Shown here in pieces: positions 8,402-45,597 of a DNA stretch of 64,000 bases. Both the position numbers and the translations under genes were made by a program. The stretch's first letter is position 1. Each line of letters opens with the position of its first letter. The stretch is from Escherichia coli (GTDB lineage: Bacteria > Pseudomonadota > Gammaproteobacteria > Enterobacterales > Enterobacteriaceae), in the NCBI RefSeq assembly GCF_030384885.1, contig NZ_CP128615.1; one strand, given 5' to 3'. The notes under the pieces were generated by a model, which had not been told where the DNA came from, did not search any database, and was given only the letters and a program-made list of their open reading frames with translations.

Positions 8402-8417
8402 GTTTCACCTCAGCGCC

Positions 8418-14000: not shown

Positions 14001-14758
14001 TACTTTACAATCCAGTTAGGTGTAAATAGCTGAGTAGCGGCAGGAATGTCTTCACTTTTGACTACTTTTCCGATGACCTGATCTTTCTTTTCAGAAATGT
14101 AGAATTGGTAAAGCCAACCAATCACTTCGACTTGTTGCCAGTCCTCTTCAGGGATGCCGTCTACCAATCCACGCAGAATGGAGTCGGTACGCATTAGGTT
14201 GTCTGGTAGCAGAAGCTCTGTTTCATCGTCCAATGCGTCAAATAAGAAAGGCATCGCTTCATGTAGCTTATGGCACTGGCCTAACAGCAGTTCACGATAC
14301 AGCTCTTCGTCTTTGTTGCCCGCAAGCTTGAGTTCAACAATGCGAGCTCTATCTAATCCGAGTTCATCCGCAGCGTCTTGGGCATGGTCGATAATTTCAA
14401 AGCCTTTAGGGTTGTCTGGGTGCGACAAAACACGAAAACCGTGGCCTAGATAGTCATGGATTTCCATATAGCGAATAGCACACAGACGGTTGAACCAGGT
14501 ATAAGCTACTTGTTCAATAAGTTGTGCATACCCAAGTTTCTGGCTTCTGGCTACTATGCGTTTTCTGGGCTCGGCCAGTTTACCGTCAAAACTGTTACCA
14601 GCGATTTGAAGCACAGAACCTTGTAGATTCGCTTCTGCAATTTGTAGCTCGCCCTTTTTATTCGCGGTGATACCAAAGGTATTTAATCGTTTAGCTACCG
14701 CATCCATAAATTCGCGGCGCGCTTTTGGTGCGTATTTTTTAATGTTGTTCGTATTCAT
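11090..14758 (-). CDS. pglX: BREX PglX N6-adenine DNA methyltransferase
   Basis: 1222-aa ORF; SAM motif LDPACGSGHIL and catalytic NPPY (ANPPYMGAKG). Confidence 0.9.
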   Translation of the reverse strand: MNTNNIKKYAPKARREFMDAVAKRLNTFGITANKKGELQIAEANLQGSVLQIAGNSFDGKLAEPRKRIVARSQKLGYAQLIEQVAYTWFNRLCAIRYMEIHDYLGHGFRVLSHPDNPKGFEIIDHAQDAADELGLDRARIVELKLAGNKDEELYRELLLGQCHKLHEAMPFLFDALDDETELLLPDNLMRTDSILRGLVDGIPEEDWQQVEVIGWLYQFYISEKKDQVIGKVVKSEDIPAATQLFTPNWIVKYLVQNSVGRQWLQTYPDSAIKSQMEYYIEPAQQSDEVNQQLKAITPESIEPETIKVLDPACGSGHILIEAYNVLKAIYEERGFRSRDIPKMILENNLFGLDIDDRAAQLSGFALMMMARDDDKRIFTRNVRLNVLSLQESNHIDLPTLWKALNLSGSWQSGTSQGLFSDEEQDLSSFNADNRYQLLKRTLARFTQAKTFGSLIDVPSDDHEQLKELLSTLVELQESGDSMQKLAAKQLIEFVHQALVLSIRYDAVIANPPYMGAKGMNADLKEFAKKQYPNSKSDLFAIFMERAFKLLSQYGFNAQINMQSWMFLSSYEQLRNNLLEDHTFITMAHLGARAFSQISGEVVQTTAWIIQNKHINHYQPTFYRLIDGNEEEKQKALLNRENEFAATAQDDFKKIPGSPIAYWVAKEILNTFMDAPISSVAKTRVGCQTSDNNRFLRLWHEVPVNTSMYDSSSKDEAESSGFKWFPYNKGGSYRKWYGNQEYVINWENAGEEVFAYAKSLYGSPTRTVKNGAFYFRSSVTWSKISSGIPSFRWQPEGAIFDVAGASVFLNSRIEEYALLAQLNSSVVLEQLKIISPTLNYETSQIASLPAIFNKADKEALFEKVSDLISNAKVDWDMYETSWNFECSPLCKIKRAKIAESYQVLNEVKLNLVNEQANLESEVNSLICNDFGISVPVSIDISTLSLFANPAFRYENSTDLSKLKSDTTCELISYSIGCMMGRYSLDREGLVYAHACNYGFDKLVAEGAYQSFAADENGIIPLTDQEWFKDDATNRFREFVQVVWGEEHLQENLDFVAESLCLNAIKPKKSESALETIRRYLSTQFYKDHLKTYKKRPIYWLFSSGKQKAFECLVYLHRYNEGTLSRMRTEYVTPLLGKYDAYAEQLEKQIETADSTSEANRFKKELDALIKKQVELREFDDKLKHYADMRISLDLDDGVKVNYGKFGDLLADVKAITGSAPEVN

Positions 14759-14773
14759 ATGATCTTGCGCCTC

Positions 14774-16537
14774 TTATTCTGTCTCTACGCTGTTTGCGGG
14801 TTGTAATGCGGTTCTAATGCGGGCAAGCAGTGTTTCCTGACGCTCGCGGTAAAAGTCCATAAACTGGTTTAGTTGTTCAGGTAATGATGTTATGGCTTGC
14901 GATTGCAGATGTGCTTGTCTTGCATTCACATCAGGCCACTGCTGCGCATACCATTCATGGGGCATTTTTTGCCGCTTCTGGTTGTTGATTGTCCCTTCCA
15001 ACAGTTGAAGGTTTGGCAGCTTGTTAGATGCCTCGATGAGTTCATCTAGCTGTTCAGCTGGGACACCAACTTTTGCAAGCTTGTTACGCGTAAACAAACC
15101 TTTGGGGTAAATGTGGTCCACATGAAAGTGTCGTGAAAAATCGAATCCTGGGAACAACAAAGTCAACAAGGCAAAGGTACGCGGATTACCATAATCCAAC
15201 TGCGCTAGTTCACTAATTTCCTCTGGGTCAAAGCGCAACGATTTACCACGCTGTTGCATGGTCGCTTCAATTTTCGCTAGCGGGAAACCCGTATCACCCG
15301 ATTGTTTAATGTCTGAGCGAAGCATAGTAAGCAGGGTATCCAAACCACTTCCCCAGATGCCTGACGCTTTCAACAACGACCTAATGAGCCAGTTTCTGAT
15401 GCATTCTCTATCGACCGCATATTCAACCCTAGAAAGGTAGCTTGCCGTTAACTTTCGGTGGTGCAGGTAATAGGCTAACGGGAGGATGGCACTTGTTGCT
15501 CTGAGGTTTTGTGCATTAAAACCAAAACTTGCCAGCAACTGCATTGAGAGCAATAACGCATCACGAATTGGCGTCCAGTTCTTTTCGAGAATCGCCATAT
15601 TTTCCTTGTTAAAGTTCTCAACCTTAAAGCCCACGCTACCGATGTCAGAGAGCATTAAGCCTGCTTTTAAAACGAGATCTTTTGATACGTTGAATCCATC
15701 ACCAACACGGTTCATCTCATCCACTAAGGCATGAATTTCTTCACGGGCATCTAACGAGCTCCACTGCGCTACGGCTATTGAAAGTAGTAAGTCTGAGTAG
15801 GACAAAGTAGTGCCGCCGCTATTCATGCGGATAAAGATATTCAGAACACGTTCAAGGCTCTGATCACTTTCTTCGTAAAACGAAATCTTATCTTTGTCAT
15901 GGATAGTTCGATACAAGTGACGAAGAGTTGAGCGAGCCTCTTTGCGTTGCTCCGAGCTCAACCTAGCATCATCAGCAACTTCATCGATAAGTGCATCTTC
16001 TTCCTCTTCCATGATCCGGCCTACACGGAACCAGTATTGTTCAGATGCATCCAAAGAGGCTTTATCGTCGGTTAGGAACTCAAAGTCATACATCGACCCA
16101 GTTTCTAAGTCGGGCTGGCTTAACAGATTTAAGTGAAGCCTGCGCACTGGGAAGGCGTCATCATTGCTCCACCATTTACCTGTCAGCTTCCACGCAAATG
16201 AGCCGCGTAGGCCGATGTTCAAAGCGGTAATCCGCTGCTGTCCATCTAGGACGGCAATGAACTCACGCTCTGGTAACTGAGTGACATTTTCACAATGGTA
16301 GTTATCTCGCTCATGGTAATGCTGCATGAACTGATAAAACTGATAGCTATGCCGGTTCTCTGGTTTTATCTTCCAGAATAGAAAGGTCCCAAACGGGTAA
16401 CCTTGCAACAGGCTATCAAATAGACGACAGATCTGTTCTGGTCGCCATACAAACTCTCGCTGGATGGCCGGTAACAGGTATTCCTGCTCAGCAACCTTGT
16501 CGAGTAATGATCTTATTGTTCCACCCGCTTGATACAT
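14774..16537 (-). CDS. GmrSD-family type IV restriction endonuclease (DUF262 + DUF1524; BrxU-like) embedded in BREX locus
   Basis: 587-aa ORF; N-terminal IQREFVW and DGQQR (DUF262/ParB-like) motifs, C-terminal HxxH-type HFHVDHIYPK (DUF1524 His-Me finger). Confidence 0.8.
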   Translation of the reverse strand: MYQAGGTIRSLLDKVAEQEYLLPAIQREFVWRPEQICRLFDSLLQGYPFGTFLFWKIKPENRHSYQFYQFMQHYHERDNYHCENVTQLPEREFIAVLDGQQRITALNIGLRGSFAWKLTGKWWSNDDAFPVRRLHLNLLSQPDLETGSMYDFEFLTDDKASLDASEQYWFRVGRIMEEEEDALIDEVADDARLSSEQRKEARSTLRHLYRTIHDKDKISFYEESDQSLERVLNIFIRMNSGGTTLSYSDLLLSIAVAQWSSLDAREEIHALVDEMNRVGDGFNVSKDLVLKAGLMLSDIGSVGFKVENFNKENMAILEKNWTPIRDALLLSMQLLASFGFNAQNLRATSAILPLAYYLHHRKLTASYLSRVEYAVDRECIRNWLIRSLLKASGIWGSGLDTLLTMLRSDIKQSGDTGFPLAKIEATMQQRGKSLRFDPEEISELAQLDYGNPRTFALLTLLFPGFDFSRHFHVDHIYPKGLFTRNKLAKVGVPAEQLDELIEASNKLPNLQLLEGTINNQKRQKMPHEWYAQQWPDVNARQAHLQSQAITSLPEQLNQFMDFYRERQETLLARIRTALQPANSVETE

Positions 16538-16553
16538 AGTTATCCGTTGCCTC

Positions 16554-19500
16554 TTACTTAATTCTTACTCGGTCGCCAGCTTTGACCGCAGCAATCAGCT
16601 GCTCTCTTAAAGCGGCAAGATAGGCATCAACTTCGGCTTCACTTTCAATGAATCCGGTTGTTACTGACTTAGCCATGGCATCGGTTGAGTTAATCGTTAC
16701 GGTACGTTTTGCAACCGGCTGTGGCTGCACTGGTTCAGAGGCTGGCTCAGGTGCTGGAGCTGCTTTACCGGCTTTCGCTGCTTCCTCTTCGCGTGTCTGC
16801 TGTTCGAGTTCACGACGTCTTTGCTCAGCTTCAGCTTTTTTGCGTTGATCTTCGATAAAGCCATTCAGCAACTCATAGGCTTCGTCCTCGTAACCTTCCG
16901 CTTCAGTTTGCTCACTGATAATTTGTGGTATTGAAGAGGTCGCTTCAATACGCTGTCTGCACATTTGTAACGGGCGCAGTGCTTGGTTCTGTAATTCAGA
17001 CGGTGCATGAGCTTCAGCTAGCGCTTCTTTTACACGTCCGATGCGCAGATCAACACGCTCTAAGGCATGAGTGCGTTTTTCTTCAACCAATGTTGAGTTA
17101 ATTTTTGCCACCTGCTCGATAAGCGGATTAATGTGGCGCAGCTGCTCATACGGCGAGGGCATATTGTAAATGCGTTCTAATTCAGTGAGCGCTTTTAATG
17201 CTTCACTGTCTTTTTCTAACGCAGGTCTATTGGCCTTAAACTTCTCGTTCAATGCGCCAGCAAGGGCTTGCCAAGTTTGAAATTGGCTATTGTAGAAGTC
17301 ATCAAGATCCTCAAAGTCCTCAGCAAACTCTTCAAGGGCATCAGCGTTTTCTAAGAATCGGGTGATAAGAGCGAAGCTTGAAGTTTGCTCAAGAATACCC
17401 GCGACCAATGCAAGACCATCGTCAATTTGAGATTTACCTGGGAAATGGCCTGTCTGTGACTTGGTTCTGAATGATTTAAGCTCTTCATTCCAAGCCAGTA
17501 ATTCATCGCGCACTAATTCGTAGAGCTCCTTTTCACCAGAGCCGGTAAAGGTTTTTGAAAAGATCTCTTTAACAAGACCAGCAGCCTTTTTGATTTGGCG
17601 CTCGTCATGTTGCCTGATTTTATGTACACGGATCTCACCGCGTTTACGCACGCTGGTAAACGGCTCGTAAGCTTTTTTCAACGCCAGATCTGTGCCCTGG
17701 GTACTAAAAGATAACTTTCCAGCCAAGCCCAGCCTTGCAGTGAGCAATAAGATTTCATTGTCTGGCCAGCCATACGGGCGCTTGCCGAAGTGGGCAACGA
17801 TGTCACGTAAGTAAACAGGCTCATTACGCTCGACTTTTAGCGTTACGTACTGCTCAACCTCACGCGTAGCTTCTGGGTTACATTCATCCGCTTGAAGATC
17901 CAGTCCAATCTGAGCAATATCATCAGCAACAAGTACGGCCTGTAGCTCACGCAAAACTTCACCAGGCGTCGCCTTGAGCATGTTCAATTTAGCGAAGGTG
18001 TTTTCGATAACGTATTTGTATGCTTCTTCGACGATGGCACTTGGCGTTGCTGATTTCTTCGGTAGTTTTGTGCCGATAGCGTAAACGTCAGCCTCTGCAA
18101 ACAAAGCTTCAAAATCCGTTCTTAAGCGTTTTTCACGCTCAATATTTTCCATCTGCTTTTCGCGGAGAAGGTGTTCTTGCTCTGGTCGCTGTCCTGAATT
18201 TTGTTTTAAGAATCGGTCAGTTTTTATAAAGGTTGTCAGGTCATCCCAAAGACGTTTATGTTCGCCCAGCTTGACGAGCACGCACCCATCAGCCTCAAGC
18301 GTATGATTGATGCAGGCTTGATCGTGGGAGTAATTTTCAAAGTGCGAATCCAAAGGTGAAATGACTTTAATGACTAGATCTTCCAGCGTGGTGCCATCTT
18401 TTGGATGACCATTGCAAAAACGGCTCACCGCAAAGTCTTGCTTATTAATCGGGTATCGATAGGCACGATTACCTTTCAAAATACCGTCAAATACGATTGC
18501 TGAAAGCTTGTTAGAGACCTCTGACATTTCAACGTCAGTGTGGCGGATCTCGTTTTCAATCTCTTTTTCTTCGTTGGTCAGGAAGATAAATTCATCACCA
18601 TTACGCGCAATCAGCAATTGGCGTTCAAGACGATTCAAGCTCTCTTCAATTTGTTTACGCAGCGCAATTTTATCTGCATCGATTCGATCAATTGACAGCG
18701 TCACAAGGTTGTCTAGTGTGCTTTTGACAACGTCCACATAACGGATCAAGAAAAGAGTTTTTAGAATCTTGCCATCGAATTCTGTTAAGGAATCCAACTC
18801 ACAGGCTTGGTCAATCGTTCGCTTAACCGCTGGCTCCAAAAAGCTTTCAATCGGTGCATAGAAACTGTAAAACGGGATTAACACATCAAGGCCAGAGTCC
18901 TTCATCTGTTTTGCAGCTGATTGGAAAGCATCAAGTAATGAACGCTCACCCATGGCTAAGTGCTTACCCGTCGCGCCTTTTGTTCGAATTGACTCAAACA
19001 CTTTTTGAACCAGCGTGTAGTGGTAAGGCACAAACGGATAGTTGTCCACGAAAGACGGAGCGTCGGTGTAGCCCTTTAGAGACGCAGTTGTCGTTTTATC
19101 AAATGTCAGCTGGTTACGAAGAATGTCGCCCTTTTCAGCAAACACATCGATGAGGTGTGTACGAGCTTCTTCCGTTTTGGACAACAAACGCTTTTGAATA
19201 ACTTCCGAGGTATTCGAGCTCGACAGCTGCAAGCGGGTACTAAAACGCCCTTGAATTTTAGAGAAGTCCTCGCCATCGCGCTTATCCATACCACCAATGG
19301 CAGCATCAATGTCTGCCTGAGAGGTAACAACGACCCAAGCTCTGCCACCACAATATGTGCCAAGATCTTCAGTAATGGTCTGAAGCTTCAACATCATTTG
19401 TGTGTTCTTACCGATAAACTGACCGACTTCATCGACTAAGAAAAGAAGGTTACGATCTCCAGTTCGATCTAAGTATTCATTAACCCACTTACAGAAGTTT

Positions 19501-20231
19501 CGGATATCTAGCGGGAAATTGTTTTCAACCTGTTCAACCCACGCTTTGGCAGACTCTAATGATTGCTCACTGGCATGAGCGAGTGCTTCTGAAAGTTCGT
19601 CTCGATAGAAGTCATAGGCGTCACGCTCCTTTTCCCAAGTTGATTGAGTCAACTCAGCAAATTTGTCCTTGAAAGACATGTATTGATTACGCTTATCAAG
19701 CTCGCGTTCTAAATGCGCAATGTGAGGAAAATCAGCGCAGTATCCTACACGCTCATTAAAGACTTTGAGGAAGACCTTAAGAATGGCATTTTCTCGGTCA
19801 TCCGTATTGGCTCGTGAATCGATGTTAAAAAGAATAACATCAGTGTCTTTGGTAACAGCGTTTTGGATATCGGCCAACAGCATGGCATCGTTGATTTTGT
19901 CTTTAAAAAACTCAAATGCTTGACGGCCTTGGCCATCCTTTTCGACAGACTTATTTTCGAGGAGGTAAGACAAAATTTTCAGGAAGTGAGACTTACCCGA
20001 ACCAAAGAAGCCAGAGATCCACACACCAATTTTTCCTGACATTGATGCGCCACTTTGCGTCACAGATGGAACGTAAGCCTCAAAGAAAGCGCGAAAATGT
20101 CGATCTAGCTCTCGGGTTACAACATACTCATCAAGTTCGACATACACACTGTCATTGTCTTTCTGTTCCGCTTTAACAACGCCGTTAATATCACGCGTCA
20201 ACTTCTTGGAAAAAATCTGTTCAATTTTCAT
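16554..20231 (-). CDS. brxC: BREX BrxC (large P-loop ATPase)
   Basis: 1225-aa ORF; Walker A GFFGSGKSH; position downstream of brxB. Confidence 0.9.
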   Translation of the reverse strand: MKIEQIFSKKLTRDINGVVKAEQKDNDSVYVELDEYVVTRELDRHFRAFFEAYVPSVTQSGASMSGKIGVWISGFFGSGKSHFLKILSYLLENKSVEKDGQGRQAFEFFKDKINDAMLLADIQNAVTKDTDVILFNIDSRANTDDRENAILKVFLKVFNERVGYCADFPHIAHLERELDKRNQYMSFKDKFAELTQSTWEKERDAYDFYRDELSEALAHASEQSLESAKAWVEQVENNFPLDIRNFCKWVNEYLDRTGDRNLLFLVDEVGQFIGKNTQMMLKLQTITEDLGTYCGGRAWVVVTSQADIDAAIGGMDKRDGEDFSKIQGRFSTRLQLSSSNTSEVIQKRLLSKTEEARTHLIDVFAEKGDILRNQLTFDKTTTASLKGYTDAPSFVDNYPFVPYHYTLVQKVFESIRTKGATGKHLAMGERSLLDAFQSAAKQMKDSGLDVLIPFYSFYAPIESFLEPAVKRTIDQACELDSLTEFDGKILKTLFLIRYVDVVKSTLDNLVTLSIDRIDADKIALRKQIEESLNRLERQLLIARNGDEFIFLTNEEKEIENEIRHTDVEMSEVSNKLSAIVFDGILKGNRAYRYPINKQDFAVSRFCNGHPKDGTTLEDLVIKVISPLDSHFENYSHDQACINHTLEADGCVLVKLGEHKRLWDDLTTFIKTDRFLKQNSGQRPEQEHLLREKQMENIEREKRLRTDFEALFAEADVYAIGTKLPKKSATPSAIVEEAYKYVIENTFAKLNMLKATPGEVLRELQAVLVADDIAQIGLDLQADECNPEATREVEQYVTLKVERNEPVYLRDIVAHFGKRPYGWPDNEILLLTARLGLAGKLSFSTQGTDLALKKAYEPFTSVRKRGEIRVHKIRQHDERQIKKAAGLVKEIFSKTFTGSGEKELYELVRDELLAWNEELKSFRTKSQTGHFPGKSQIDDGLALVAGILEQTSSFALITRFLENADALEEFAEDFEDLDDFYNSQFQTWQALAGALNEKFKANRPALEKDSEALKALTELERIYNMPSPYEQLRHINPLIEQVAKINSTLVEEKRTHALERVDLRIGRVKEALAEAHAPSELQNQALRPLQMCRQRIEATSSIPQIISEQTEAEGYEDEAYELLNGFIEDQRKKAEAEQRRRELEQQTREEEAAKAGKAAPAPEPASEPVQPQPVAKRTVTINSTDAMAKSVTTGFIESEAEVDAYLAALREQLIAAVKAGDRVRIK

Positions 20232-20249
20232 TCGGGAGGCTCCCTGCTC

Positions 20250-20843
20250 TTAATTTTTTTTACCGTCTTCAGGCACAAGCTTGAAGGCGCGATAGTAGTT
20301 TTTAGATTCGATCATGCCGAAAGGATGCAAATCCCTTCCGCTATATTCACCCGGATAGAAAAGCACTAATGGCGTGCTACCCATAACGTCTTGCAGAGCA
20401 CTAAGTAACTCATGTCCTCGGATAAGAGGCCACGCACTGCCTAAGCCTGACAGCAACACAAACTCAAGTTCTGATGGCTTATATTTGTCCGCGATATACC
20501 TTGCCACTTTCTCTTGGCTCAGAGGCCCGGCTAGTGTTTTTCGAAGGCCATCAACACCGACTTGCAATTCACGCTGGCAAGCTCGGTCGAAAAGGCCTCG
20601 CTCCTCAAGCATATCTATCAAGACTTCAAAAATATTGAGATGGACAAAGCGGTAACCACGCTTGTTGAGTTTTTCGTCAACGTGCTTAATGTGCTCTCGT
20701 ACAAGCAGTTCATACTTGGCTGGATAGTCAAATACCCAAAATCCAATTTCATTGCCCAAGCCATCGTTTTTCAAAAACTTAGGGCTTTCAATTCGTTCCA
20801 GTATCAGATCAAGCCTGGTCTGAAGAGCCTTCATATTGTGCAC
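20250..20843 (-). CDS. brxB: BREX BrxB (DUF1788)
   Basis: 197-aa ORF immediately upstream of brxC, overlapping brxA; size and position typical. Confidence 0.8.
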   Translation of the reverse strand: MHNMKALQTRLDLILERIESPKFLKNDGLGNEIGFWVFDYPAKYELLVREHIKHVDEKLNKRGYRFVHLNIFEVLIDMLEERGLFDRACQRELQVGVDGLRKTLAGPLSQEKVARYIADKYKPSELEFVLLSGLGSAWPLIRGHELLSALQDVMGSTPLVLFYPGEYSGRDLHPFGMIESKNYYRAFKLVPEDGKKN

Positions 20844-21430
20844 TCCATTACCTCAATCAAATCTTCCCGGCCCAGACGAACTAACCAGTCTTTAACTTCT
20901 GGCATTAGGTAAACAGGTTGTATTTTCTTTGTCCTGCTATCACTCAGGTAGCCACTATCAACCAGTGCCTTAATTGCGTTGTTACCCATTTTTTTGACAG
21001 TTGAGTCAGAAAAACCGCCAAGCTCAGCATATGCCCGCACTCTCGTGTCATAAAACTCAGACCATGCATCAGCGGTTAAAGAGGGTTTATAGGTGCGACG
21101 AGCTTCGGCTAAGGTAAGTCGCATAAAATAAGCGACAACCGGAGAATGAATGAGTAATGACATCATCAGCATTTGGACATAGGCACGTTCACTCGCGGCT
21201 AAAAGATCAGTCATAAACTCATCACCCAGGCCTTCAATACGCCAACGGATTGTTCTGGCATAACGAATAGCCGTCTGACCGGATTTTTTCTGAAGAACAT
21301 TTTGCTCAACGATCAGCGACTTCCACTCATCTTCTGGAAGTTTTTTCAATAGCGATTCTGCGATTATTCTAGATTCAGTTATCAATAAACTGCCTCCGAT
21401 AAGATCGCCTAAATATTCTTTTATATTCAT
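20831..21430 (-). CDS. brxA: BREX BrxA (DUF1819)
   Basis: 199-aa ORF first structural gene of operon; size and position typical. Confidence 0.8.
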   Translation of the reverse strand: MNIKEYLGDLIGGSLLITESRIIAESLLKKLPEDEWKSLIVEQNVLQKKSGQTAIRYARTIRWRIEGLGDEFMTDLLAASERAYVQMLMMSLLIHSPVVAYFMRLTLAEARRTYKPSLTADAWSEFYDTRVRAYAELGGFSDSTVKKMGNNAIKALVDSGYLSDSRTKKIQPVYLMPEVKDWLVRLGREDLIEVMECTI

Positions 21431-21439
21431 AAATTCATC

Positions 21440-22366
21440 TCACGATTCGCTATATCCAGGAGCGAGTGCAGCATTGTCAACGCCGTATAGTGCTTCTGGA
21501 TTTTTAAGTGCTAAATGGAACTCTCGCCCATTGCTCTTACAATTCTTTGAACAATCGATATTCCATAAACGCAGTAAATATCCAGCGAACGCAGCTCTTA
21601 TCTCTACACGCAACCTATTGTTTTCCATTGCGTAGTCCATCGATACAGCTTCTGGATGTGCTAGTTTTGGATGAGGTATCAGCTCTAGCTCAACGATTCG
21701 GTTCCATTGCTTATCCCACTGAAGAGTCTCAACTTCGTCGTTAACCTCATCCTCTAACAACTCAACTTCACTTATTCTGGTTAAAACAAAATCCCTAAAT
21801 TCTCTAAGCTTTCTATCGAATGCTCGGACATGCCATCTCAAGCCATTGTCAATCAGGGTATGAGGAACTATTTGCCTGCTCCCATGACCACTCGACAATG
21901 AGGTGTACTCAATATTAATCACAGCGCGCTTATGTATGGCTTCACTAATAGCCGCTACAACTTCCAATTTCGGCTTATTGAGATGGAATGGTGCTTCACA
22001 AGCCATAGGTGGCCTGGCCTTGCCAAGAAAGCCATCACCGAACCCTTGGCTTATCGTCGCAAGAGTTCGAACAACGTCATAATCAAACAACGGCTGGAAT
22101 GCGCTCGTCTTCAAGTGCACTCTGCGCTTTTCGTCATACATAACGTTGTTAGGAGCCAACTCTTTGTACCGCGCAAAATCTTGTGTTGCCACAGACGGCG
22201 CTACGCTAAATCGCTCGGTTAAATAACTACGCCCAGCTTCACCTTTAAATAACAAAGTGAAATCAATATGAGCGAGTCGTTCTCTCTGTGCTTGGCTAAG
22301 CTCTTCAAGTCCAGTGTTGTCTTGCACTGTCAGCCTCTCAATCCATCTGGGACAAGCCCTAATCAT
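21440..22366 (-). CDS. brxR: BrxR-type WYL-domain transcriptional regulator
   Basis: 308-aa ORF upstream of brxA; WYL-like core (RWHVRAFDRKLREFRDF); true start may be an internal Met. Confidence 0.75.
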   Translation of the reverse strand: MIRACPRWIERLTVQDNTGLEELSQAQRERLAHIDFTLLFKGEAGRSYLTERFSVAPSVATQDFARYKELAPNNVMYDEKRRVHLKTSAFQPLFDYDVVRTLATISQGFGDGFLGKARPPMACEAPFHLNKPKLEVVAAISEAIHKRAVINIEYTSLSSGHGSRQIVPHTLIDNGLRWHVRAFDRKLREFRDFVLTRISEVELLEDEVNDEVETLQWDKQWNRIVELELIPHPKLAHPEAVSMDYAMENNRLRVEIRAAFAGYLLRLWNIDCSKNCKSNGREFHLALKNPEALYGVDNAALAPGYSES

Positions 22367-23902: not shown

Positions 23903-24959
23903 GGCTTTGTTGAATAAATCGAACTTTTGCTGAGTTGAAGGATCAGATCACGCATCCTCCCGACAACACAGACCATTCCGTGGCAAAGCAAAAGTTCAGA
24001 ATCACCAACTGGTCCACCTACAACAAAGCTCTCATCAACCGTGGCTCCCTCACTTTCTGGCTGGATGATGGGGCGATTCAGGCCTGGTATGAGTCGGCAA
24101 CGCCTTCATCACGGGGAAGGCCCCAGCGCTATTCTGACCTTGCCATCACGACTGTGCTGGTCATTAAACGCGTATTCAGGCTGACCCTGCGCGCTGCGCA
24201 GGGCTTTATTGATTCCATTTTTACACTGATGAATGTTCCGTTGCGCTGCCCGGATTACAGCTGTGTCAGCAGGCGGGCAAAGTCGGTTAACGTCAGTTTC
24301 AAAACGTTCACCCGGGGTGAAATCGCGCATCTGGTGATTGATTCCACCGGGCTGAAGGTCTTTGGTGAAGGCGAGTGGAAAGTCAAAAAGCATGGCCAGG
24401 AACGCCGTCGTATATGGCGAAAGTTGCATCTGGCAGTTGACAGCAACACACATGAAATCATCTGTGCAGACCTGTCGCTGAACAATGTGACGGACTCAGA
24501 AGCCTTCCCGGGTCTTATCCGGCAGACTCACAGAAAAATCAGGGCAGCATCGGCAGACGGCGCTTACGACACCCGGCTCTGTCACGATGAACTGCGGCGT
24601 AAGAAAATCAGCGCGCTTATCCCTCCCCGAAAAGGTGCGGGTTACTGGCCCGGTGAATATGCAGACCGTAACCGTGCAGTGGCTAATCAGCGAATGACCG
24701 GGAGTAATGCGCGGTGGAAATGGACAACAGATTACAACCGTCGCTCGATAGCGGAAACGGCGATGTACCGGGTAAAACAGCTGTTCGGGGGTTCACTGAC
24801 GCTGCGTGACTACGATGGTCAGGTTGCGGAGGCTATGGCCCTGGTACGAGCGCTGAACAAAATGACGAAAGCAGGTATGCCTGAAAGCGTGCGTATTGCC
24901 TGAAAACACAACCCGCTACGGGGGAGACTTACCCGAAATCTGATTTATTCAACAAAGCC
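23903..24959 (+). mobile_element. IS903-like (IS5 family) copy 1, 1057 bp, intact
   Basis: 18-bp IRs GGCTTTGTTGAATAAATC at both ends; no 9-bp target duplication. Confidence 0.9.
23935..24903 (+). CDS. IS903-like DDE transposase
   Basis: 322-aa ORF ...[28 protein letters not shown]... Confidence 0.9.
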
Positions 24960-34493: not shown

Positions 34494-34643
34494 CGCTTTT
34501 CAGTATCTCGACAGGGATAACTTACTTTACCATCGGTTATCCCTTTTAGCCGCACAAATTTTAGCCATGGCTTTTCAGGAAGTCAGGGCTATCAGAATGG
34601 CCTTAGAAAGCCTAGTCAAAGAGCTGTCACGAGAACACCGTTA

Positions 34644-34681
34644 GCTTAGCGTACGATTTTTTCCGAATTCTGCGGTTCCCC
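34644..34681. repeat. Tn1721 terminal inverted repeat (mcp side)
   Basis: reverse complement of GGGGAACCGCAGAATTCGGAAAAAATCGTACGCTAAG. Confidence 0.8.
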
Positions 34682-34715
34682 CTTAATTTCAGTATCTGTT
34701 ATTACAGTTGGGTAT

Positions 34716-34790
34716 CGGTGATGCTGCCAACTTACTGATTTAGTGTATGATGGTGTTTTTGAGGTGCTCCAGTGGCTTCTGTTTCTATGG
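34716..34790 (+). mobile_element. IS1 terminal fragment (IR plus first ~75 bp)
   Basis: GGTGATGCTGCCAACTTACTGATTTAGTGTATGATGG...; joined directly to a Tn3-family IR. Confidence 0.8.
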
Positions 34791-34828
34791 GGTCAGTTTG
34801 GATATCGAAAATTATTGTACGTTAAGGT
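34791..34828. repeat. Tn3-family 38-bp terminal inverted repeat (unidentified transposon)
   Basis: GGGGTCAGTTTGGATATCGAAAATTATTGTACGTTAAG followed on minus strand by a tnpA 3' fragment. Confidence 0.7.
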
Positions 34829-35147
34829 CGTTTTTTGACCTTTCTACTTTAGCTGGCCTCAGCCGACGAAACTTACCGGAGGCCGGTATTCTGTTGTTTT
34901 TCCAGATGTAATCGCCTGTCAGATTGATATGCTCCCAGCCTAACGGCGACAAATGTGACAGCAGTTGCTCGTTGATCTTCACCCCTTTACGCTTCAGGGC
35001 ATCGACCGCTCTTTCCATATACACTGTATTCCACAGCGAGATAGTTGCTGTCAGCAGCGTCAGTCCACTGGCGCGGTAGCTCTGATTTTCCGGTTTACGA
35101 TCCCTGATTTCACCCAGACGGTGCAGGAATACCGCGCGCGCTAGAGA
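34812..35147 (-). pseudogene. Tn3-family transposase TnpA, C-terminal ~110 codons only
   Basis: ...[17 protein letters not shown]...[17 protein letters not shown]...; homology to TnpA ends near 35147. Confidence 0.75.
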
Positions 35148-35666
35148 GAGCTCCCATCGCTGCGCGACGGGCCCCAACCGGAGAACCAAGTTAGTTACAG
35201 CATTCAGATGAAAATTCATCATAAAACCGGCGCCGGTTTGCCAGCCAGGAGCCCCTCCCCACCACTGAAAAGCGCCGCCGCCCCCGGCCGAAGGCCGGGA
35301 GTAGTGTCGCTTTTAATGATGGGTGTTGTAACTACTCTTCGTCATCTCTGTGAGTAGTGTCGCGGTAAGTTCTGGGATACACGCTCGTAAGCGGCCCTAA
35401 CGGCCCGCTAACGCGGAGATACGCCCCGACTGCGGCTGTCGCCTTGCCGGGACCACTCCGACCGCGTACAGAGGCATCTGAGCCGTTTTTAGCGGGTATA
35501 GCTTTGCAGGGAAGGGGGTGGGTGAGGCAGAACCTGTCAAAACAGCAGCCGGCTGCGCCGGGCGACGGCGCCATTTACCCGCAGTACTCCATTCAACTTC
35601 AGCTGGCGCCTCCATGCCGCTGACGCGGCATTATCTATACTTTAAGTCTGGCCACTGGAGGTAACC

Positions 35667-35751
35667 ATGTGCGGACGTTTTTCTCAGTCTATGACGCGGG
35701 AAGAGTATCTTTCTCTCCTCGCCAATGAAGCCGATCGAAATATTGCCTACG
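35667..35751 (+). pseudogene. SRAP/YedK-like (DUF159) gene, first 28 codons only, truncated by IS903
   Basis: MCGRFSQSMTREEYLSLLANEADRNIAY with RBS GGAGGT; runs into the IS903 IR at 35752. Confidence 0.5.
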
Positions 35752-35912
35752 GGCTTTGTTGAATAAATCAGATTTCGGGTAAGTCTCCCCCGTAGCGGGT
35801 TGTGTTTTCAGGCAATACGCACGCTTTCAGGCATACCTGCTTTCGTCATTTTGTTCAGCGCTCGTACCAGGGCCATAGCGGGGTCGTTTGCGGGAGGGGG
35901 CGGAATCCTACG

Positions 35913-38798
35913 CTAAGGCTTTGGCCAGCGATATTCTCCGGTGAGATTGATGTGTTCCCATCCGAGCGGCGAAACATGGGCCAAGAGATCGGGCGATAGC
36001 AGCTTTCCATCGCGTTTCTGGTTTGCAACGACCTCGCCGAGCTTCATGGTGTTCCAGAAGATGATGATGGCGGCGAGCAGATTCATGCCGGCGATGCGGT
36101 AATGCTGGCCTTCGGCGGAACGGTCGCGGATTTCACCGCGGCGGTGGAAGCTGATTGCCCGCTTCAGCGCATGATGAGCTTCGCCTTTGTTGAGCCCGAT
36201 CTGGGCACGCCGTTGGAGTTCGGCATCCAGAATCCAGTCGATCATGAACAGGGTGCGCTCGACGCGACCGACTTCCCGCAGGGCTGTCGCGAGCTCGTTC
36301 TGCCGCGGATAGGAGGCGAGTTTCCGCAGAATCTGGCTTGGCGCGACGGTCCCGGCAGCAATGGTGGCGGCGATGCGCAGGATGTCGGGCCAATTGCGCT
36401 CGATCATGGCTTGGTTGACCTTTCCGCCGATCAACGCTCGCAGGTGCGCCGGGGCGGCCGACGGATTGAACGCGTAGAGCCGTTTGGATGGCAGGTCGCG
36501 GATGCGCGGAGCGAACCGGTAGCCGAGAATGGCACATGCGGCAAAGACGTGATCGGTGAAGCCGCCCGTGTCGGTGAACTGCTCGCGGATATGGCGTCCA
36601 GCATCGTTCATCAGCAGGCCATCGAGGATGTAAGGCGCTTCGCTTGCCGTTGCAGGAATCACCTGGGTTGCGAACGGCGCATATTGGTCGGAGACGTGGC
36701 TATAGGCTTTCAGGCCCGGGGTATTGCCATATTTCGCGTTGACCAGGTTCATGGCCTCACCTTGCTCTGTAGCGACGAAGAACTGTCCGTCGCTCGAAGC
36801 CGACGTGCCCATGCCCCAGAACCGGGCCATGGGTAACGCTGCCTGTGCCTCGACCACCATGGCCAGCGCCCGGTCATAGGCTTCGCCCTCGACATGCCAC
36901 CGTCCAATGCGGATCAATTCCCAGAAGGTGTGGGTGTTTGTCGCATCCGCCATTTTGCGCAAGCCGAGGTTGATCCCTTCCGCCAAGATAACGTTCATTA
37001 GCCCGATCCGGTCAGCGCAGGGTGCTCCTGTGCGCAGATGGGTGAACGCTTCGGTGAAGCCGGTCGCCGCATCCACCTCCAGCAGGAGATCGGTGATGCG
37101 CGTGGGCGGGATCTGCTTGTAGAGATCGAGCACCAGATCTTCGGCGCCTGTCGGCGCGGCGGCTTCGAGTTTCTCGATATGCAGAACGCCGTTTTCAATC
37201 GACCCGCCCGGGATCGTGCCTGCGCGAGCGGCACGGCCAAGCTCGCGCAACCGCATGTCGAGGCGAGCTTGCCGGTCTGCCAGCCATTCCTCCGGCCGCA
37301 ATGGCACAGCGAGACGACCGCCTTCCGCGATGGATTGTGCCGGAACGAGTGCGTGTTTCAGATCGCCATAGCGCCGGGACCTAGTAAGCCAGACATCTCC
37401 GGAGCGGAACGCATCGCGCAGATGGAACAGCACCGCGATCTCCCATAGGCGAGCGTCGCCAGCCCTCTGGGCCCGAAGGTGGCGATGCCATTTCGAGCTG
37501 GGCCGCAAGAAGCTGGTCATCGCGGCATCGTTCAAACCGGTACGAAGGGCCGTCACCGCTTCCAGAAGCGGCAGTGCAACGGGCGCAGCTCGCAGATCGA
37601 GCAGGCGCAACATGCGTGGAGCGTATCGGCGGAAGCGGTGATAACCGTCGAGCACATGATTGAGCGGATCGTCGGCCATGGTGGCGGTCAGCCTGGTTGC
37701 CATTGCAACAAGGGTTTTTAAGCCGTCCCACCCTGACCCACTCGCGATGACATCGCCCAGCGGCTGGCCATCATCCTGTGCATCGACCAGGGCGCCCCCG
37801 ATCTCGGCGAAGGATTTCAGGGTGTCACGCACCACCCCCGCTTCGTCTGCGACCTTTGCATGGCAAATACGCTCCGAAGCACGGTAGAGACGGCCGACGA
37901 TCCGGTCGTGGGTTTCGACCACTGCGTCGGCCAACATCGCCTGCCATTCCGAGACGCAAACAGCCAAGATCGCAAGCCGCCTGTCCTCCGGGAGATCGCG
38001 CATGCCGTCGGCATAATACCGTTCACCCTGCCTGCGCAGACGAGTCACCCGATGGGCAGGAACGCCGGCAAGCAGATCCTCGGGGAGATCGATGCGTTGC
38101 AGATATTCGAGCCGGTCGAGCAGCCGGTTGGCCGACGAAGAGTTCGAGCCAGGCTCGAACTGGCGCAGCCACACAAAACGGGTCACCCGATCATCAGCCG
38201 TCTCCTCGAGCAATGCCAGCAACTGTTCTCGGATCGACATAGGCAGCCGACTGGCGATCCTCGTCTCGATGCGTCGCTCGGCATCGACGAGAGCCGCGGC
38301 ACAAAGCCGCTCGATCGTGGATGTCGCGGGAAGGACAGTGCGGGTGCGTCGGCACTCGGCTACGAAGCGACGGGCGATATCCTCGTTCGACACCGCCATC
38401 TCGGCTTCTCGGAACAACCATTCCTTCAGCTCGCTCGCACCACGTCCGGAGAAGGTGCGGAAGCCGTAGAGCCCCCGTAACTCGGCAAGATGCTCGTGCC
38501 GTGTTTCCTCGCGGGCAGCATAGTCTACGAGATCGTCGGCACCCAGGCCAAGCTGCGCTCCGATAAATTCGATGACCTCTGCAGGGATCAGTTCGCCTGG
38601 AGCCAGCACCCGGCCGGGATAGCGCAGGACACACAATTGCAGGGCGAAGCCGAACCTGTTGTGAGCGCGCCGACGCAGCCTGATATGCCCAAGGTCTTCA
38701 TCACTCAGCGTATAGTGCTTGAGCAAATCCGTCTGTGAAGTCGGCAAGCGCAACAGCGCGTCTTTCTGCCGATCGGTTAGAGTGACGCGACGCGGCAT
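35913..38798 (-). CDS. tnpA: Tn3-family transposase TnpA (Tn5393)
   Basis: 961-aa ORF; C-terminal ...[17 protein letters not shown]. Confidence 0.9.
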   Translation of the reverse strand: MPRRVTLTDRQKDALLRLPTSQTDLLKHYTLSDEDLGHIRLRRRAHNRFGFALQLCVLRYPGRVLAPGELIPAEVIEFIGAQLGLGADDLVDYAAREETRHEHLAELRGLYGFRTFSGRGASELKEWLFREAEMAVSNEDIARRFVAECRRTRTVLPATSTIERLCAAALVDAERRIETRIASRLPMSIREQLLALLEETADDRVTRFVWLRQFEPGSNSSSANRLLDRLEYLQRIDLPEDLLAGVPAHRVTRLRRQGERYYADGMRDLPEDRRLAILAVCVSEWQAMLADAVVETHDRIVGRLYRASERICHAKVADEAGVVRDTLKSFAEIGGALVDAQDDGQPLGDVIASGSGWDGLKTLVAMATRLTATMADDPLNHVLDGYHRFRRYAPRMLRLLDLRAAPVALPLLEAVTALRTGLNDAAMTSFLRPSSKWHRHLRAQRAGDARLWEIAVLFHLRDAFRSGDVWLTRSRRYGDLKHALVPAQSIAEGGRLAVPLRPEEWLADRQARLDMRLRELGRAARAGTIPGGSIENGVLHIEKLEAAAPTGAEDLVLDLYKQIPPTRITDLLLEVDAATGFTEAFTHLRTGAPCADRIGLMNVILAEGINLGLRKMADATNTHTFWELIRIGRWHVEGEAYDRALAMVVEAQAALPMARFWGMGTSASSDGQFFVATEQGEAMNLVNAKYGNTPGLKAYSHVSDQYAPFATQVIPATASEAPYILDGLLMNDAGRHIREQFTDTGGFTDHVFAACAILGYRFAPRIRDLPSKRLYAFNPSAAPAHLRALIGGKVNQAMIERNWPDILRIAATIAAGTVAPSQILRKLASYPRQNELATALREVGRVERTLFMIDWILDAELQRRAQIGLNKGEAHHALKRAISFHRRGEIRDRSAEGQHYRIAGMNLLAAIIIFWNTMKLGEVVANQKRDGKLLSPDLLAHVSPLGWEHINLTGEYRWPKP

Positions 38799-44540: not shown

Positions 44541-45597
44541 GGCTTTGTTGAATAAATCAGATTTCGGGTAAGTCTCCCCCGTAGCGGGTTGTGTTTTCAG
44601 GCAATACGCACGCTTTCAGGCATACCTGCTTTCGTCATTTTGTTCAGCGCTCGTACCAGGGCCATAGCCTCTGCAACCTGACCATCGTAGTCACGCAGTG
44701 TCAGTGAACCTCCGAACAGCTGTTTTACCCGGTACATCGCCGTTTCCGCTATCGAGCGACGGTTGTAATCTGTTGTCCATTTCCACCGCGCATTACTCCC
44801 GGTCAGCCGCTGATTCGCAACAGCACGGTTACGGTCTGCATATTCACCGGGCCAGTAACCCGCGCCTTTTCGGGGCGGGATAAGCGCGCTGATTTTCTTA
44901 CGCCGCAGTTCATCGTGACAGAGTTGGGTGTCGTAAGCGCCGTCTGCCGATGCTGCCCTGATTTTTCTGTGAGTCTGCCGGATAAGACCCGGGAAGGCTT
45001 CTGAGTCCGTCACATTGTTCAGCGACAGGTTTGCACAGATGATTTCATGTGTGTTGCTGTCAACTGCCAGATGCAACTTTCGCCATATACGACGGCGTTC
45101 CTGGCCATGCTTTTTGACTTTCCATTCGCCTTCACCAAAGACCTTCAGCCCGGTGGAATCAATCACCAGATGCGCGATTTCACCCCGGGTGAACGTTTTG
45201 AAACTGACATTAACCGACTTTGCGCGCTTGCTGACACTGGTGTAATCCGGGCAGCGCAACGGAACATTCATCAGTGTAAAAATGGAATCAATAAAACCCT
45301 GTGCAGCCCGCAGGGTCAACCTGAACACGCGTTTAATGACCAGAACGGTGGTGATGGCGAGATCAGAATAGCGCTGAGGTCTTCCCCGTGATGAAGGCGT
45401 TGCCGACTCATACCAGGCCTGAATAGCTTCATCATCCAGCCAGAAAGTTATGGAGCCACGGTTGATGAGGGCTTTATTGTAGGTGGGCCAGTTGGTTATT
45501 TTGAACTTTTGCTTTGCCACGGAATGGTCTGCGTTGTCGGGAAGATGCGTGATCTGATCCTTCAACTCAGCAAAAGTTCGATTTATTCAACAAAGCC
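44541..45597 (-). mobile_element. IS903-like copy 3, 1057 bp, intact
   Basis: 18-bp IRs at both ends; same orientation as copy 2. Confidence 0.9.
44597..45565 (-). CDS. IS903-like DDE transposase
   Basis: 322-aa ORF nearly identical to copy 1. Confidence 0.9.
   Translation of the reverse strand: MKDQITHLPDNADHSVAKQKFKITNWPTYNKALINRGSITFWLDDEAIQAWYESATPSSRGRPQRYSDLAITTVLVIKRVFRLTLRAAQGFIDSIFTLMNVPLRCPDYTSVSKRAKSVNVSFKTFTRGEIAHLVIDSTGLKVFGEGEWKVKKHGQERRRIWRKLHLAVDSNTHEIICANLSLNNVTDSEAFPGLIRQTHRKIRAASADGAYDTQLCHDELRRKKISALIPPRKGAGYWPGEYADRNRAVANQRLTGSNARWKWTTDYNRRSIAETAMYRVKQLFGGSLTLRDYDGQVAEAMALVRALNKMTKAGMPESVRIA

What the first reader, a model, noticed from the sequence alone, without database searches (positions are those of the whole stretch)
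35148..35666. Unexplained GC-rich 0.5-kb segment with direct repeats upstream of a truncated SRAP gene
Between the end of the Tn3-family tnpA fragment and the MCGRF start of a YedK/SRAP-like gene lies about 520 bp with no convincing ORF. It has a 12-bp direct repeat GAGTAGTGTCGC about 60 bp apart, several GC hairpins (GCGGCCC-taac-GGCCCGC) and base composition unlike the flanks. It could be the native 5' regulatory region of the SRAP gene, a structured RNA, or a fragment of another element.
Basis: seen in the sequence. Interest (0 to 1): 0.35.

Follow-up and report, generated by a model that had tools for sequence, protein, structure and literature searches.

The report
Leftover piece of IncFII replication origin
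The GC-rich 0.5-kb stretch is an orphaned piece of an IncFII-type plasmid replication region, the DNA just beyond the origin that carries fork-arrest (Ter) sites and priming hairpins; it is a known kind of sequence left stranded among transposons, not a new element.

Summary
Window 35143-35632 is colinear with the DNA that lies about 0.4-1.0 kb downstream of repA in IncFII-family replicons such as R100 and Klebsiella IncFII plasmids. This is just past the DnaA box and oriR, in the stretch the R100/NR1 literature calls the "repA4 region".

It contains:
- an inverted pair of Tus/Ter-type sites;
- a conserved hairpin with compensatory changes;
- a 93-bp near-invariant block;
- three serial hairpins followed by CTG on the minus strand, laid out like the phage G4 priming origin.

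Only the last ~35 bp (35632-35666, with the GGAGG ribosome-binding site) go with the SRAP gene.

repA and oriR are absent from the window, so this is a relic. Plasmid pHB25-1-88K has an intact repA and oriR, and its sequence is identical to window 35251-35920, including both the SRAP/IS903B and IS903B/Tn5393 junctions. That shows what kind of plasmid the relic came from.

The 12-bp direct repeat is real (1.35% of shuffles reach 12 bp) but is not conserved in related replicons. Rfam finds nothing in the segment, and no conserved ORF or sigma-70 promoter was found.

Verdict: already known, low interest.

The parts
35143..35632 (+). Relic of the origin-distal ('repA4') region of an IncFII-family replicon. 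repA and oriR are missing.
   Evidence: BLAST to replicon regions: 87% to pKP15ZE495-1, 92.5% to pKPT698-mcr, 73.7% over 494 bp to R100. No other part of those replicons is present in the window. In intact plasmids this DNA lies about 420-950 bp downstream of the repA stop, beyond the DnaA box.
35188..35210 (-). Left Ter-like site (CATCTGAATGCTGTAACTAACTT on the minus strand). It has one core mismatch (T11 to C).
   Evidence: One-mismatch match to GNRNGTTGTAAYKA. The equivalent site in R100, L012 and L014 has a perfect core; the site is absent in L011 and L013.
35268..35314 (.). Conserved long hairpin: outer stem A4GCG/CGCT4 and inner stem CCCGGCC-GAA-GGCCGGG. It resembles a bidirectional terminator and directly abuts the right Ter site.
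   Evidence: Inverted repeat I1. ssDNA fold z = -3.35 (+ strand) and -3.91 (- strand). Across 10 replicons, 98.6% of cells are paired, 2 pairs show compensatory changes (7 cells), and 0 of 500 shuffles reach this.
35316..35338 (+). Right Ter site (ATGATGGGTGTTGTAACTACTCT) with a perfect core and G at position 6.
   Evidence: The only exact match to GNRNGTTGTAAYKA in the 64-kb window. The core GTTGTAACTA is invariant in all 12 aligned replicons; 16 of 23 columns are invariant.
35299..35310 (+). Direct-repeat copy 1 (GAGTAGTGTCGC). It lies in the 3' arm of the conserved hairpin.
   Evidence: Relatives differ here: GAGTGATGTCGC in L004, GAACAGAGTCGC in R100.
35352..35363 (+). Direct-repeat copy 2 (GAGTAGTGTCGC). 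It lies in a variable spacer between the right Ter site and the invariant block.
   Evidence: The 35339-35377 segment has mean pairwise identity 0.59 and 4 of 39 invariant columns. The repeat is perfect only in the window lineage, L004 (copy 2 only) and L016.
35378..35470 (.). It is a candidate single-strand initiation signal (primosome-assembly or primase site).
   Evidence: 74 of 93 columns are invariant, and mean identity is 0.91 against 0.59-0.67 in the flanks. The minus strand folds with z = -2.66, the plus strand with z = -0.74. The consensus structure has 33 pairs, 2 of them compensatory. 98.5% of cells pair on the minus strand against 89.4% on the plus strand.
35543..35631 (-). Three serial hairpins on the minus strand: III at 35614-35631, II at 35567-35610, I at 35549-35561. 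They are followed 3' by CTGCTG (35548-35543). This is a G4-oric-like layout and the best positional candidate for the primase 'G-site' / leading-strand start.
   Evidence: Folds (R100 homologue z = -3.33; window z = -1.74). Phage G4 oric has hairpins and then CTACTG, with the annotated primer start there. Compensatory changes occur in hairpin III (L012) and hairpin II (R100). In R100 it begins 590 bp after the DnaA box, roughly 420 bp past the inferred right end of oriR.
35632..35666 (+). SRAP-specific leader, with a -10-like TATACT at 35636-35641 and the Shine-Dalgarno GGAGG at 35657-35661.
   Evidence: Shared only by SRAP-bearing plasmids (L002, L004, L005, L006, L016). Mean identity across all replicons is 0.33. 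No sigma-70 consensus promoter was found.
35667..35751 (+). First 28 codons of an SRAP (YedK-like) gene, truncated.
35752..35879 (.). 128-bp end fragment of IS903B. It is itself cut by the Tn5393 inverted repeat at 35880.
   Evidence: 100% identical to the ends of the IS903B copies at 24832-24959 and 44541-44668. Tn5393-type tnpA lies at 35913-38798.
34789..35142 (-). Tn3-family terminal inverted repeat (34789-34826) plus the C-terminal ~111 codons of tnpA. It is joined to the IncFII relic with no recognisable element end at the junction.
   Evidence: Pfam DDE_Tnp_Tn3; sequence; junction defined by the alignment.

Best explanation
**What it is.** Window 35143-35632 is a relic of an IncFII-family plasmid replicon. 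It is the cis-acting region that lies immediately beyond oriR, called the 'repA4 region' in R100/NR1. The 35 bp that follow are the leader of the SRAP gene, which is the next gene in Klebsiella-type IncFII plasmids.

**How the region works in an intact replicon (established knowledge of R1/R100, cited from memory unless a paper id is given).** RepA opens oriR and DnaB unwinds rightwards. Leading-strand synthesis is then primed by DnaG about 400 bp downstream of oriR, at a G4-type 'G-site'. An inverted pair of Ter sites binds Tus and forms a polar fork trap, which stops the fork after one round and suppresses rolling-circle/multimer products.

**How the window maps onto that plan.**
- Ter-like site at 35188-35210 (minus orientation).
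- Conserved hairpin at 35268-35314.
- Ter site at 35316-35338 (plus orientation). If, as I recall, the non-permissive face of a Ter site is at its position-1-to-6 end, the non-permissive faces of the two Ter sites point towards each other.
- Near-invariant structured block at 35378-35470.
- Three hairpins followed by CTG on the minus strand at 35543-35631.

**State in this window.** The window has no IncFII repA or oriR, so these sites cannot act as an origin here. The segment is a passenger left by transposon-associated deletion.

**Shown:** homology, synteny, conservation pattern, covariation, absence of repA/oriR, and the donor-type plasmid.

**Inferred:** which block is the G-site and which is a primosome site, the strand assignment, and the Tus binding and orientation effects.
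For: 1. **Abundance and host range.** More than 5000 plasmid records match the segment, mostly Klebsiella conjugative plasmids.
2. **Synteny.** In every intact example examined, the match lies 0.4-0.5 kb downstream of an IncFII-type repA, whatever gene follows. This holds for L002, L003/L007 (R100), L005, L006, L009, L011, L012, L013, L014 and L016.
3. **Relic status.** The DnaA box TTATCCACA lies about 175 bp after the repA stop in those plasmids. That is 240-290 bp upstream of the point where the window's homology begins, so oriR is not in the window. A BLAST of three whole replicon regions against the window finds only 35143-35751.
4. **Donor type.** pHB25-1-88K has intact repA plus oriR and is 100% identical to window 35251-35920, including the SRAP/IS903B and IS903B/Tn5393 junctions.
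5. **Ter sites.** There is one exact consensus match in 64 kb, its core is invariant in 12 replicons, and a partner lies in inverted orientation.
6. **Conservation is patchy, as expected for cis sites.** Mean identity is 0.91 in the 93-bp block and 0.82-0.86 in the hairpin and right Ter site, against 0.55-0.67 in the spacers.
7. **Structure.** Covariation supports the 35268-35314 hairpin. The three-hairpin-plus-CTG layout matches phage G4 oric.
8. **Literature.** The R100 ori lies between repA1 and repA4, and the repA4 region holds the ter sites and is needed for stable maintenance (PMC4398462). The Tus-ter system represses rolling-circle products of plasmid R1 (PMC6315707).
Against: - **Primary papers unavailable.** The papers that map the R1/NR1 leading-strand start and ter sites could not be read in the held library. 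These are Masai & Arai 1989, Bernander et al. 1992, Jiang et al. 1993 and Krabbe et al. 1997. Assigning individual blocks to named sites therefore rests on position, structure and memory.
- **Weakened left Ter site.** In this lineage it carries a core substitution (T11C) and may not bind Tus.
- **CTG is not universal.** The CTG next to the hairpins is absent in L011-L014. The window variant also lacks the TACTG that R100 has next to the 93-bp block.
- **Strand evidence for the 93-bp block is mixed.** G·T pairs favour the minus strand. However, an F-type relative elsewhere in the window keeps hairpin pairing only on the other strand (by eye), and the AAGCGG motif is on the plus strand.
- **The direct repeat has no assigned role.**
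Confidence: 0.9

Rival explanations
1. The whole 520 bp is the native promoter/regulatory region of the SRAP gene.
For: In L006 the intact SRAP gene follows directly, with no other gene in between. The last ~35 bp, with the GGAGG ribosome-binding site and a TATACT hexamer, are found only in SRAP-bearing plasmids.
Against: The same conserved sequence up to about 35632 precedes tir/CPBP in R100, DUF2913-umuDC in L011, a hypothetical gene in L012 and L014, and an Rpn nuclease in L013. No sigma-70-like promoter was detected, and I saw no LexA-box-like CTG-N10-CAG in 35600-35666.
Confidence: 0.05
2. It encodes a structured non-coding RNA.
For: There are several stable hairpins. One hairpin (35268-35314) is followed by a T-run, like an intrinsic terminator, and shows covariation.
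Against: No Rfam family matches at E <= 1 inside the segment, and no promoter-like site was found. The best-conserved motifs are protein-binding or ssDNA motifs of a replication origin region (Ter core, hairpins plus CTG). The location is fixed relative to oriR, not to any gene.
Confidence: 0.03
3. It encodes the RepA4 protein: the 128-codon ORF annotated in older R100 records.
For: R100 has a 128-aa ORF on the plus strand covering this region (L007 10033-10419). It is named repA4 in several plasmid papers.
Against: The frame is not preserved in the window or its Klebsiella relatives: the plus-strand ORFs are only 49, 59 and 48 aa. The R100 ORF has no Pfam match. RefSeq no longer annotates it. 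Conservation is concentrated in hairpins and Ter cores, not spread along the ORF as expected for coding sequence; codon-position variation was not examined.
Confidence: 0.02
4. The relic is not inert. Its Ter site(s) and priming hairpins still act in the present IncR-type plasmid as an ectopic fork trap or a complementary-strand priming site, and are retained for that reason.
For: The right Ter core is perfect, so Tus binding is physically plausible in any Enterobacteriaceae host. Relics of this same region without repA have arisen independently at least three times, with different left junctions: the window lineage, L004 and L010. At least 444 records carry the full window arrangement.
Against: All copies of the window arrangement share identical junctions. 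That is what hitch-hiking with a recently spread resistance region would give. IncFII replicons are common insertion neighbours of resistance transposons, so repeated relic formation needs no selection.
Confidence: 0.1

Closest known systems
IncFII basic replicon of R1 / R100 (NR1): the origin-distal 'repA4 region' with the ter inverted repeats and the leading-strand start (G-site)
   Same: The order and spacing after repA and the DnaA box are the same. Identity to R100 is 73.7% over 494 bp. There is an inverted Ter pair, the same conserved hairpin, an identical 93-bp block and the same three terminal hairpins.
   Different: Here it is an orphan: repA, copA/copB and oriR are absent. It is the Klebsiella-type allele, in which the left Ter core is mutated and the downstream gene is SRAP rather than tir-pemIK. 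The R100 repA4 ORF is not preserved.
Tus-Ter replication fork trap of the E. coli chromosome (TerA-J) and plasmid R6K
   Same: The 14-bp core consensus GNRNGTTGTAAYKA is matched exactly at 35321-35334, with G at position 6. The two sites are inverted; on my recalled Ter polarity their non-permissive faces point inwards, as described for fork traps (PMC6315707).
   Different: The trap is only about 130 bp wide and sits next to a plasmid origin. One arm carries a core mismatch. Binding and arrest were not tested.
Phage G4 complementary-strand origin (oric), the prototype primase-only single-strand initiation signal
   Same: Serial hairpins on the template strand are followed 3' by CTG. R100 even shares the TACTG found at the annotated G4 primer start.
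   Different: BLAST finds no primary-sequence similarity to phage genomes. The CTG is missing in several related replicons. Activity was not tested.
RepFIA (F plasmid) oriV-1 region
   Same: A ~40-nt relative of the 93-bp block (TACAAGCTCGTAAGTGGCCCTGACGGCC...) lies in DNA upstream of ccdA in pUTI89, and as a second relic in this window at 60960-61013.
   Different: Only the first hairpin and its flanks are shared. The rest of the region is unrelated.

Membership tests
IncFII-family replicon, origin-distal (repA4) region | Sequence homology to the region downstream of ori in R100/R1 | tested here: met
   73.7% over 494 bp to R100. 80-98% to Klebsiella/Enterobacter IncFII replicons.
IncFII-family replicon, origin-distal (repA4) region | Fixed position about 0.4-1 kb downstream of an IncFII-type repA and its DnaA box in intact plasmids | tested here: met
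   True in 10 intact replicons with five different downstream genes.
IncFII-family replicon, origin-distal (repA4) region | Inverted pair of ter sites | tested here: met
   35188-35210 (minus, one core mismatch) and 35316-35338 (plus, exact). The literature statement that repA4 holds the ter sites is in PMC4398462.
Functional IncFII replicon | repA, copA/tap control region and oriR (DnaA box, RepA-binding region) present in cis | tested here: not met
   Only 35143-35751 of the replicon is present in the window, and the DnaA box lies upstream of the breakpoint. The segment is therefore a relic, not a replicon.
Tus-Ter fork barrier | Match to the Ter core consensus with G/C at position 6 | tested here: met
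   Exact match at 35321-35334. It is the only exact match in 64 kb. With up to one mismatch there are 4 matches, against 1.43 expected by chance.
Tus-Ter fork barrier | Tus binding and polar fork arrest | not testable with these tools
   Needs EMSA or 2D-gel analysis in tus+ and tus- hosts.
G4-type primase-dependent single-strand initiation signal (G-site / ssiA) | Stable hairpins on the template strand with a CTG start triplet just 3' of them | tested here: inconclusive
   35631-35549 (minus strand) forms three hairpins followed by CTGCTG, and R100 has the same with TACTG (z = -3.33). However, L011-L014 lack the CTG, and the window's fold z is only -1.74.
G4-type primase-dependent single-strand initiation signal (G-site / ssiA) | Primase-only priming on SSB-coated single-stranded DNA | not testable with these tools
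   Needs an M13 ori-defective vector assay or in vitro priming.
phiX174-type (PriA, n') primosome assembly site | Hairpin carrying the AAGCGG motif (recalled from memory), plus PriA-dependent ATPase/priming | tested here: inconclusive
   AAGCGG lies at 35389-35394 on the plus strand, inside the invariant block. The hexamer is also in the phiX174 F-G intergenic region. A 6-mer is weak evidence, and activity is not testable here.
Rfam RNA families | Covariance-model match | tested here: not met
   No hit at E <= 1 within 35143-35666. The only hit in 34500-36300 is a sub-threshold isrL fragment at 34500-34595.
Iteron-type repeats | Repeated motif conserved in number and sequence among related replicons | tested here: not met
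   There are only two copies. They match 10/12 in L004 and are unrelated in R100, L002 and L006.

The most novel reading that the evidence does not exclude
The orphaned IncFII origin-distal segment is still active in its new host plasmid. Tus bound at the intact Ter site (35316-35338) would arrest forks of the IncR-type replicon and limit rolling-circle/multimer formation. The hairpin signals could also prime complementary-strand synthesis. The relic would then be retained by selection rather than by chance.
Probability: 0.08. Interest if true: 0.3.

Novelty: already known. Interest (0 to 1): 0.08.

Why it matters
The result mainly helps annotation. Thousands of Enterobacteriaceae plasmid records leave this stretch unannotated or call spurious small ORFs in it. 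Recognising it as the ter/priming region of IncFII replicons, or as a relic of one, avoids treating it as an unknown element and helps reconstruct how resistance regions were assembled. Here the relic shows that part of this IncR-type plasmid's resistance region was taken from a pHB25-1-88K-like IncFII plasmid, together with Tn5393 and an IS903B fragment. It raises no new biological question unless the orphaned Ter site proves to influence replication of its new host plasmid.

Tried and rejected
- **Rfam.** A permissive-threshold scan of 34500-36300 found nothing in the segment.
- **Phage search.** A BLAST of the invariant block against 50,697 phage genomes, looking for G4/phiX-type origins, gave only a 19-nt chance hit.
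- **Promoter and terminator scan.** It found no sigma-70-like promoter. The one terminator-like site is in fact hairpin I plus the CTGCTGTTTT tail on the minus strand.
- **Protein coding.** The two largest local ORFs and the R100 repA4 ORF have no Pfam match, and the frame is not conserved.
- **Direct repeat as an iteron or binding motif.** Rejected because it is not conserved in homologous replicons, even though it is nominally rarer than chance.
- **Primary literature.** I tried to read the papers on the R1/NR1 G-site, ter sites and repA4 (PMC98921, PMC206589, PMC390076, PMC557023, PMC4441207). None is held. Full-text searches for G-site, terR1/terR2, ssiA and AAGCGG returned nothing usable.
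- **First G-site assignment revised.** I initially assigned the G-site to the 93-bp block. A second candidate (three hairpins plus CTG at 35543-35631) fits the published distance from oriR and the G4 geometry better. I therefore leave the two assignments open.

Full report
**Observation**

The segment is as described. To the left, 34812-35147 on the minus strand encodes the last ~111 residues of a Tn3-family transposase (PF01526, profile positions 310-389 of 389), ending at a 38-bp terminal inverted repeat at 34789-34826. To the right, an ORF starting MCGRFSQS at 35667 is 27/28 identical to the N-terminus of an intact 223-aa SRAP protein (PF02586, E = 1.5e-48). It is cut after codon 28 by a 128-bp IS903B end (35752-35879), which is in turn cut by the Tn5393 inverted repeat at 35880.

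Between the two there is no ORF longer than 80 aa, and the two largest have no Pfam match. GAGTAGTGTCGC occurs at 35299 and 35352, a 53-bp spacing. An exact repeat this long appears in 1.35% of 2000 dinucleotide-preserving shuffles. The hairpin GCGGCCC-TAAC-GGCCCGC is at 35391-35408 and is imperfect. GC content is 59.3%, against 48.7% on the left and 55.1% on the right.

**What it is**

The 519 bp match more than 5000 plasmid records, mostly Klebsiella conjugative plasmids. I looked at the annotation around matches spread across the identity range. In every intact case the match begins 0.4-0.5 kb downstream of an IncFII-type repA:

- KPC-2 IncFII plasmid;
- pETN48 and R100;
- pKPT698-mcr;
- pKP15ZE495-1;
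- five further replicons from Klebsiella, Enterobacter and Edwardsiella;
- pHB25-1-88K.

The gene that follows differs between plasmids: SRAP, tir/CPBP-pemIK, DUF2913-umuDC, a hypothetical gene, or an Rpn nuclease. The conserved DNA therefore belongs to the replicon, not to SRAP. In a 12-sequence alignment, homology to the non-SRAP plasmids ends at about 35632. The last 35 bp, including GGAGG at 35657-35661, are shared only with SRAP-bearing plasmids.

The DnaA box TTATCCACA, which marks oriR, lies about 175 bp after the repA stop in these plasmids. That is 240-290 bp upstream of the point that corresponds to window 35143. A BLAST of three complete replicon regions against the whole window finds only 35143-35751. 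The window therefore holds the origin-distal part of an IncFII replicon without repA and without oriR. It is a relic.

**Where it came from**

pHB25-1-88K (NZ_CP039525) has an intact repA (1-1014) and oriR. It is 100% identical to window 35251-35920, including the SRAP/IS903B junction and the IS903B/Tn5393 junction. So SRAP was already truncated, and Tn5393 already adjacent, while the replicon was intact. The repA-oriR side was lost later, leaving a junction at 35142/35143 with an internally truncated Tn3-family tnpA.

The first ~110 bp (35149-35250) differ from pHB25-1-88K at 12 positions, which suggests a mosaic allele.

Relics of the same region with other left junctions exist in pKPN103_3, where it is cut by a Tn3 inverted repeat 75 bp further left, and in pNT1N25-tetX4.

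The window itself is an IncR-type plasmid backbone carrying BREX-1, Tn1721 and Tn5393.

**Anatomy**

Conservation is patchy in the way expected of cis-acting sites.

1. **Ter sites.** A Ter-like site at 35188-35210 (minus orientation) has one core mismatch in this lineage, but a perfect core in R100, L012 and L014. A Ter site at 35316-35338 (plus orientation) has a core that is the only exact match to GNRNGTTGTAAYKA in 64 kb and is invariant in all 12 replicons. On my recollection of Ter polarity (non-permissive face at the G/C-6 end), the non-permissive faces of the two sites point at each other. That is the fork-trap arrangement described in PMC6315707.
2. **Conserved hairpin.** Between the Ter sites lies a long hairpin at 35268-35314, with outer stem A4GCG/CGCT4 and inner stem CCCGGCC-GAA-GGCCGGG. 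Across 10 replicons 98.6% of cells are paired, two base pairs show compensatory changes, and 0 of 500 shuffles reach this. Fold z-scores are -3.35 and -3.91. Direct-repeat copy 1 is part of its 3' arm.
3. **Variable spacer.** 35339-35377 has mean identity 0.59 and contains repeat copy 2.
4. **Near-invariant block.** 35378-35470 has 74 of 93 invariant columns and mean identity 0.91. Its minus strand folds with z = -2.66 and its plus strand with z = -0.74. The consensus structure has 33 pairs, mostly invariant, with two compensatory. It pairs in 98.5% of cells on the minus strand against 89.4% on the plus strand.
5. **Three-hairpin cluster.** On the minus strand there are three serial hairpins (35614-35631, 35567-35610, 35549-35561), followed immediately 3' by CTGCTG (35548-35543). 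R100 has the same three hairpins followed by TACTG (z = -3.33). Hairpin III in L012 and hairpin II in R100 show compensatory changes.

**How it most likely works**

From established knowledge of R1/R100 (recalled; the primary papers are not in the library): RepA opens oriR, DnaB unwinds rightwards, and the leading strand is primed by primase alone at a G4-type "G-site" about 400 bp downstream of oriR. Tus bound at the ter sites stops the fork after one round.

Two held papers support the outline. In R100-type replicons the ori lies between repA1 and repA4, and the repA4 region holds the ter sites and is required for stable maintenance (PMC4398462). The Tus-ter system represses rolling-circle products of R1 (PMC6315707).

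In R100, measured from the DnaA box, the left Ter site is at +231, the right Ter core at +371, the invariant block at +422 and hairpin I at +590. With a 188-bp oriR that starts near the DnaA box, hairpin I and its CTG lie about 420 bp beyond oriR. They also lie just past the end of the 128-codon repA4 ORF.

Phage G4's annotated primer start sits at CTACTG, immediately 3' of its hairpins. This is the same geometry. I therefore consider 35543-35631 (minus strand) the best candidate for the G-site.

The 93-bp block is a second single-strand initiation or primosome-assembly signal. It carries AAGCGG on the plus strand, a motif I recall from phiX174-type n' sites and which is present in the phiX174 F-G intergenic region. 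These two assignments are inferences and could be swapped.

In this window none of these sites can support initiation, because repA and oriR are gone.

**The direct repeat**

It is perfect in the window and in pHB25-1-88K. It matches 10/12 in pKPN103_3 and is unrecognisable in R100, L002 and L006. Copy 1 is constrained by the hairpin, while copy 2 lies in the most variable spacer. I see no evidence that it is a functional motif.

**Alternatives**

- **SRAP regulatory region:** holds only for the last ~35 bp.
- **Structured RNA:** no Rfam hit and no promoter.
- **RepA4 protein:** the frame is not conserved.
- **Residual activity in the new plasmid:** activity of the orphaned Ter site cannot be excluded and is the only mildly novel reading.

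**Verdict**

This is a known kind of sequence, a relic of the IncFII origin-distal ter/priming region plus the SRAP leader. Interest is low.

Noticed in passing
window 60840-61058: A second origin-region relic. 60840-61020 is 99% identical to DNA about 650-830 bp upstream of ccdA in pUTI89, which by the map in PMC4398462 is where the F-type RepFIA oriV-1 lies. It contains a ~40-nt relative of the near-invariant IncFII block (TACAAGCTCGTAAGTGGCCCTGACGGCC..., 60960-61013, minus strand). It abuts a Tn3-family inverted repeat at 61021-61058, which is related to the one at 34789-34826.
   Followed up: partly
window 6326-22366: A complete-looking BREX type 1 defence operon (brxC, pglX, pglZ, brxL and others) on this IncR-type plasmid. 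It is 100% identical to NZ_CP024857.1 and NZ_CP080127.1.
   Followed up: no
window 34500-34595: A sub-threshold Rfam match to the 3' end of isrL (19.7 bits against a gathering score of 35; E = 0.0053), just downstream of the Tn1721 chemotaxis-protein gene. Probably chance.
   Followed up: no
window 34645-34826: Nested debris, in order: the Tn1721 terminal repeat (~34645-34682), 34 bp of unassigned DNA, a 72-bp IS1 left-end fragment (34717-34788), and the Tn3-family inverted repeat that cuts the IS1 fragment at 34789.
   Followed up: partly
L004 6950-7532; L010 1320-2002: Independent orphan copies of the same IncFII origin-distal region, lacking repA, in pKPN103_3 (IncR, cut by a Tn3 inverted repeat) and pNT1N25-tetX4 (next to RepFIA repE, IS1 and IS26). 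Formation of this relic is therefore recurrent.
   Followed up: partly
window 35149-35250: All 12 differences from pHB25-1-88K fall within 35149-35250, while 35251-35920 are identical. This suggests a recombination breakpoint or mosaic allele inside the relic.
   Followed up: no
L014 1761-1932: The Enterobacter plasmid pEN37L carries a ~170-bp insertion between the near-invariant block and the three-hairpin cluster. Both remain intact on either side, so their spacing is flexible.
   Followed up: no
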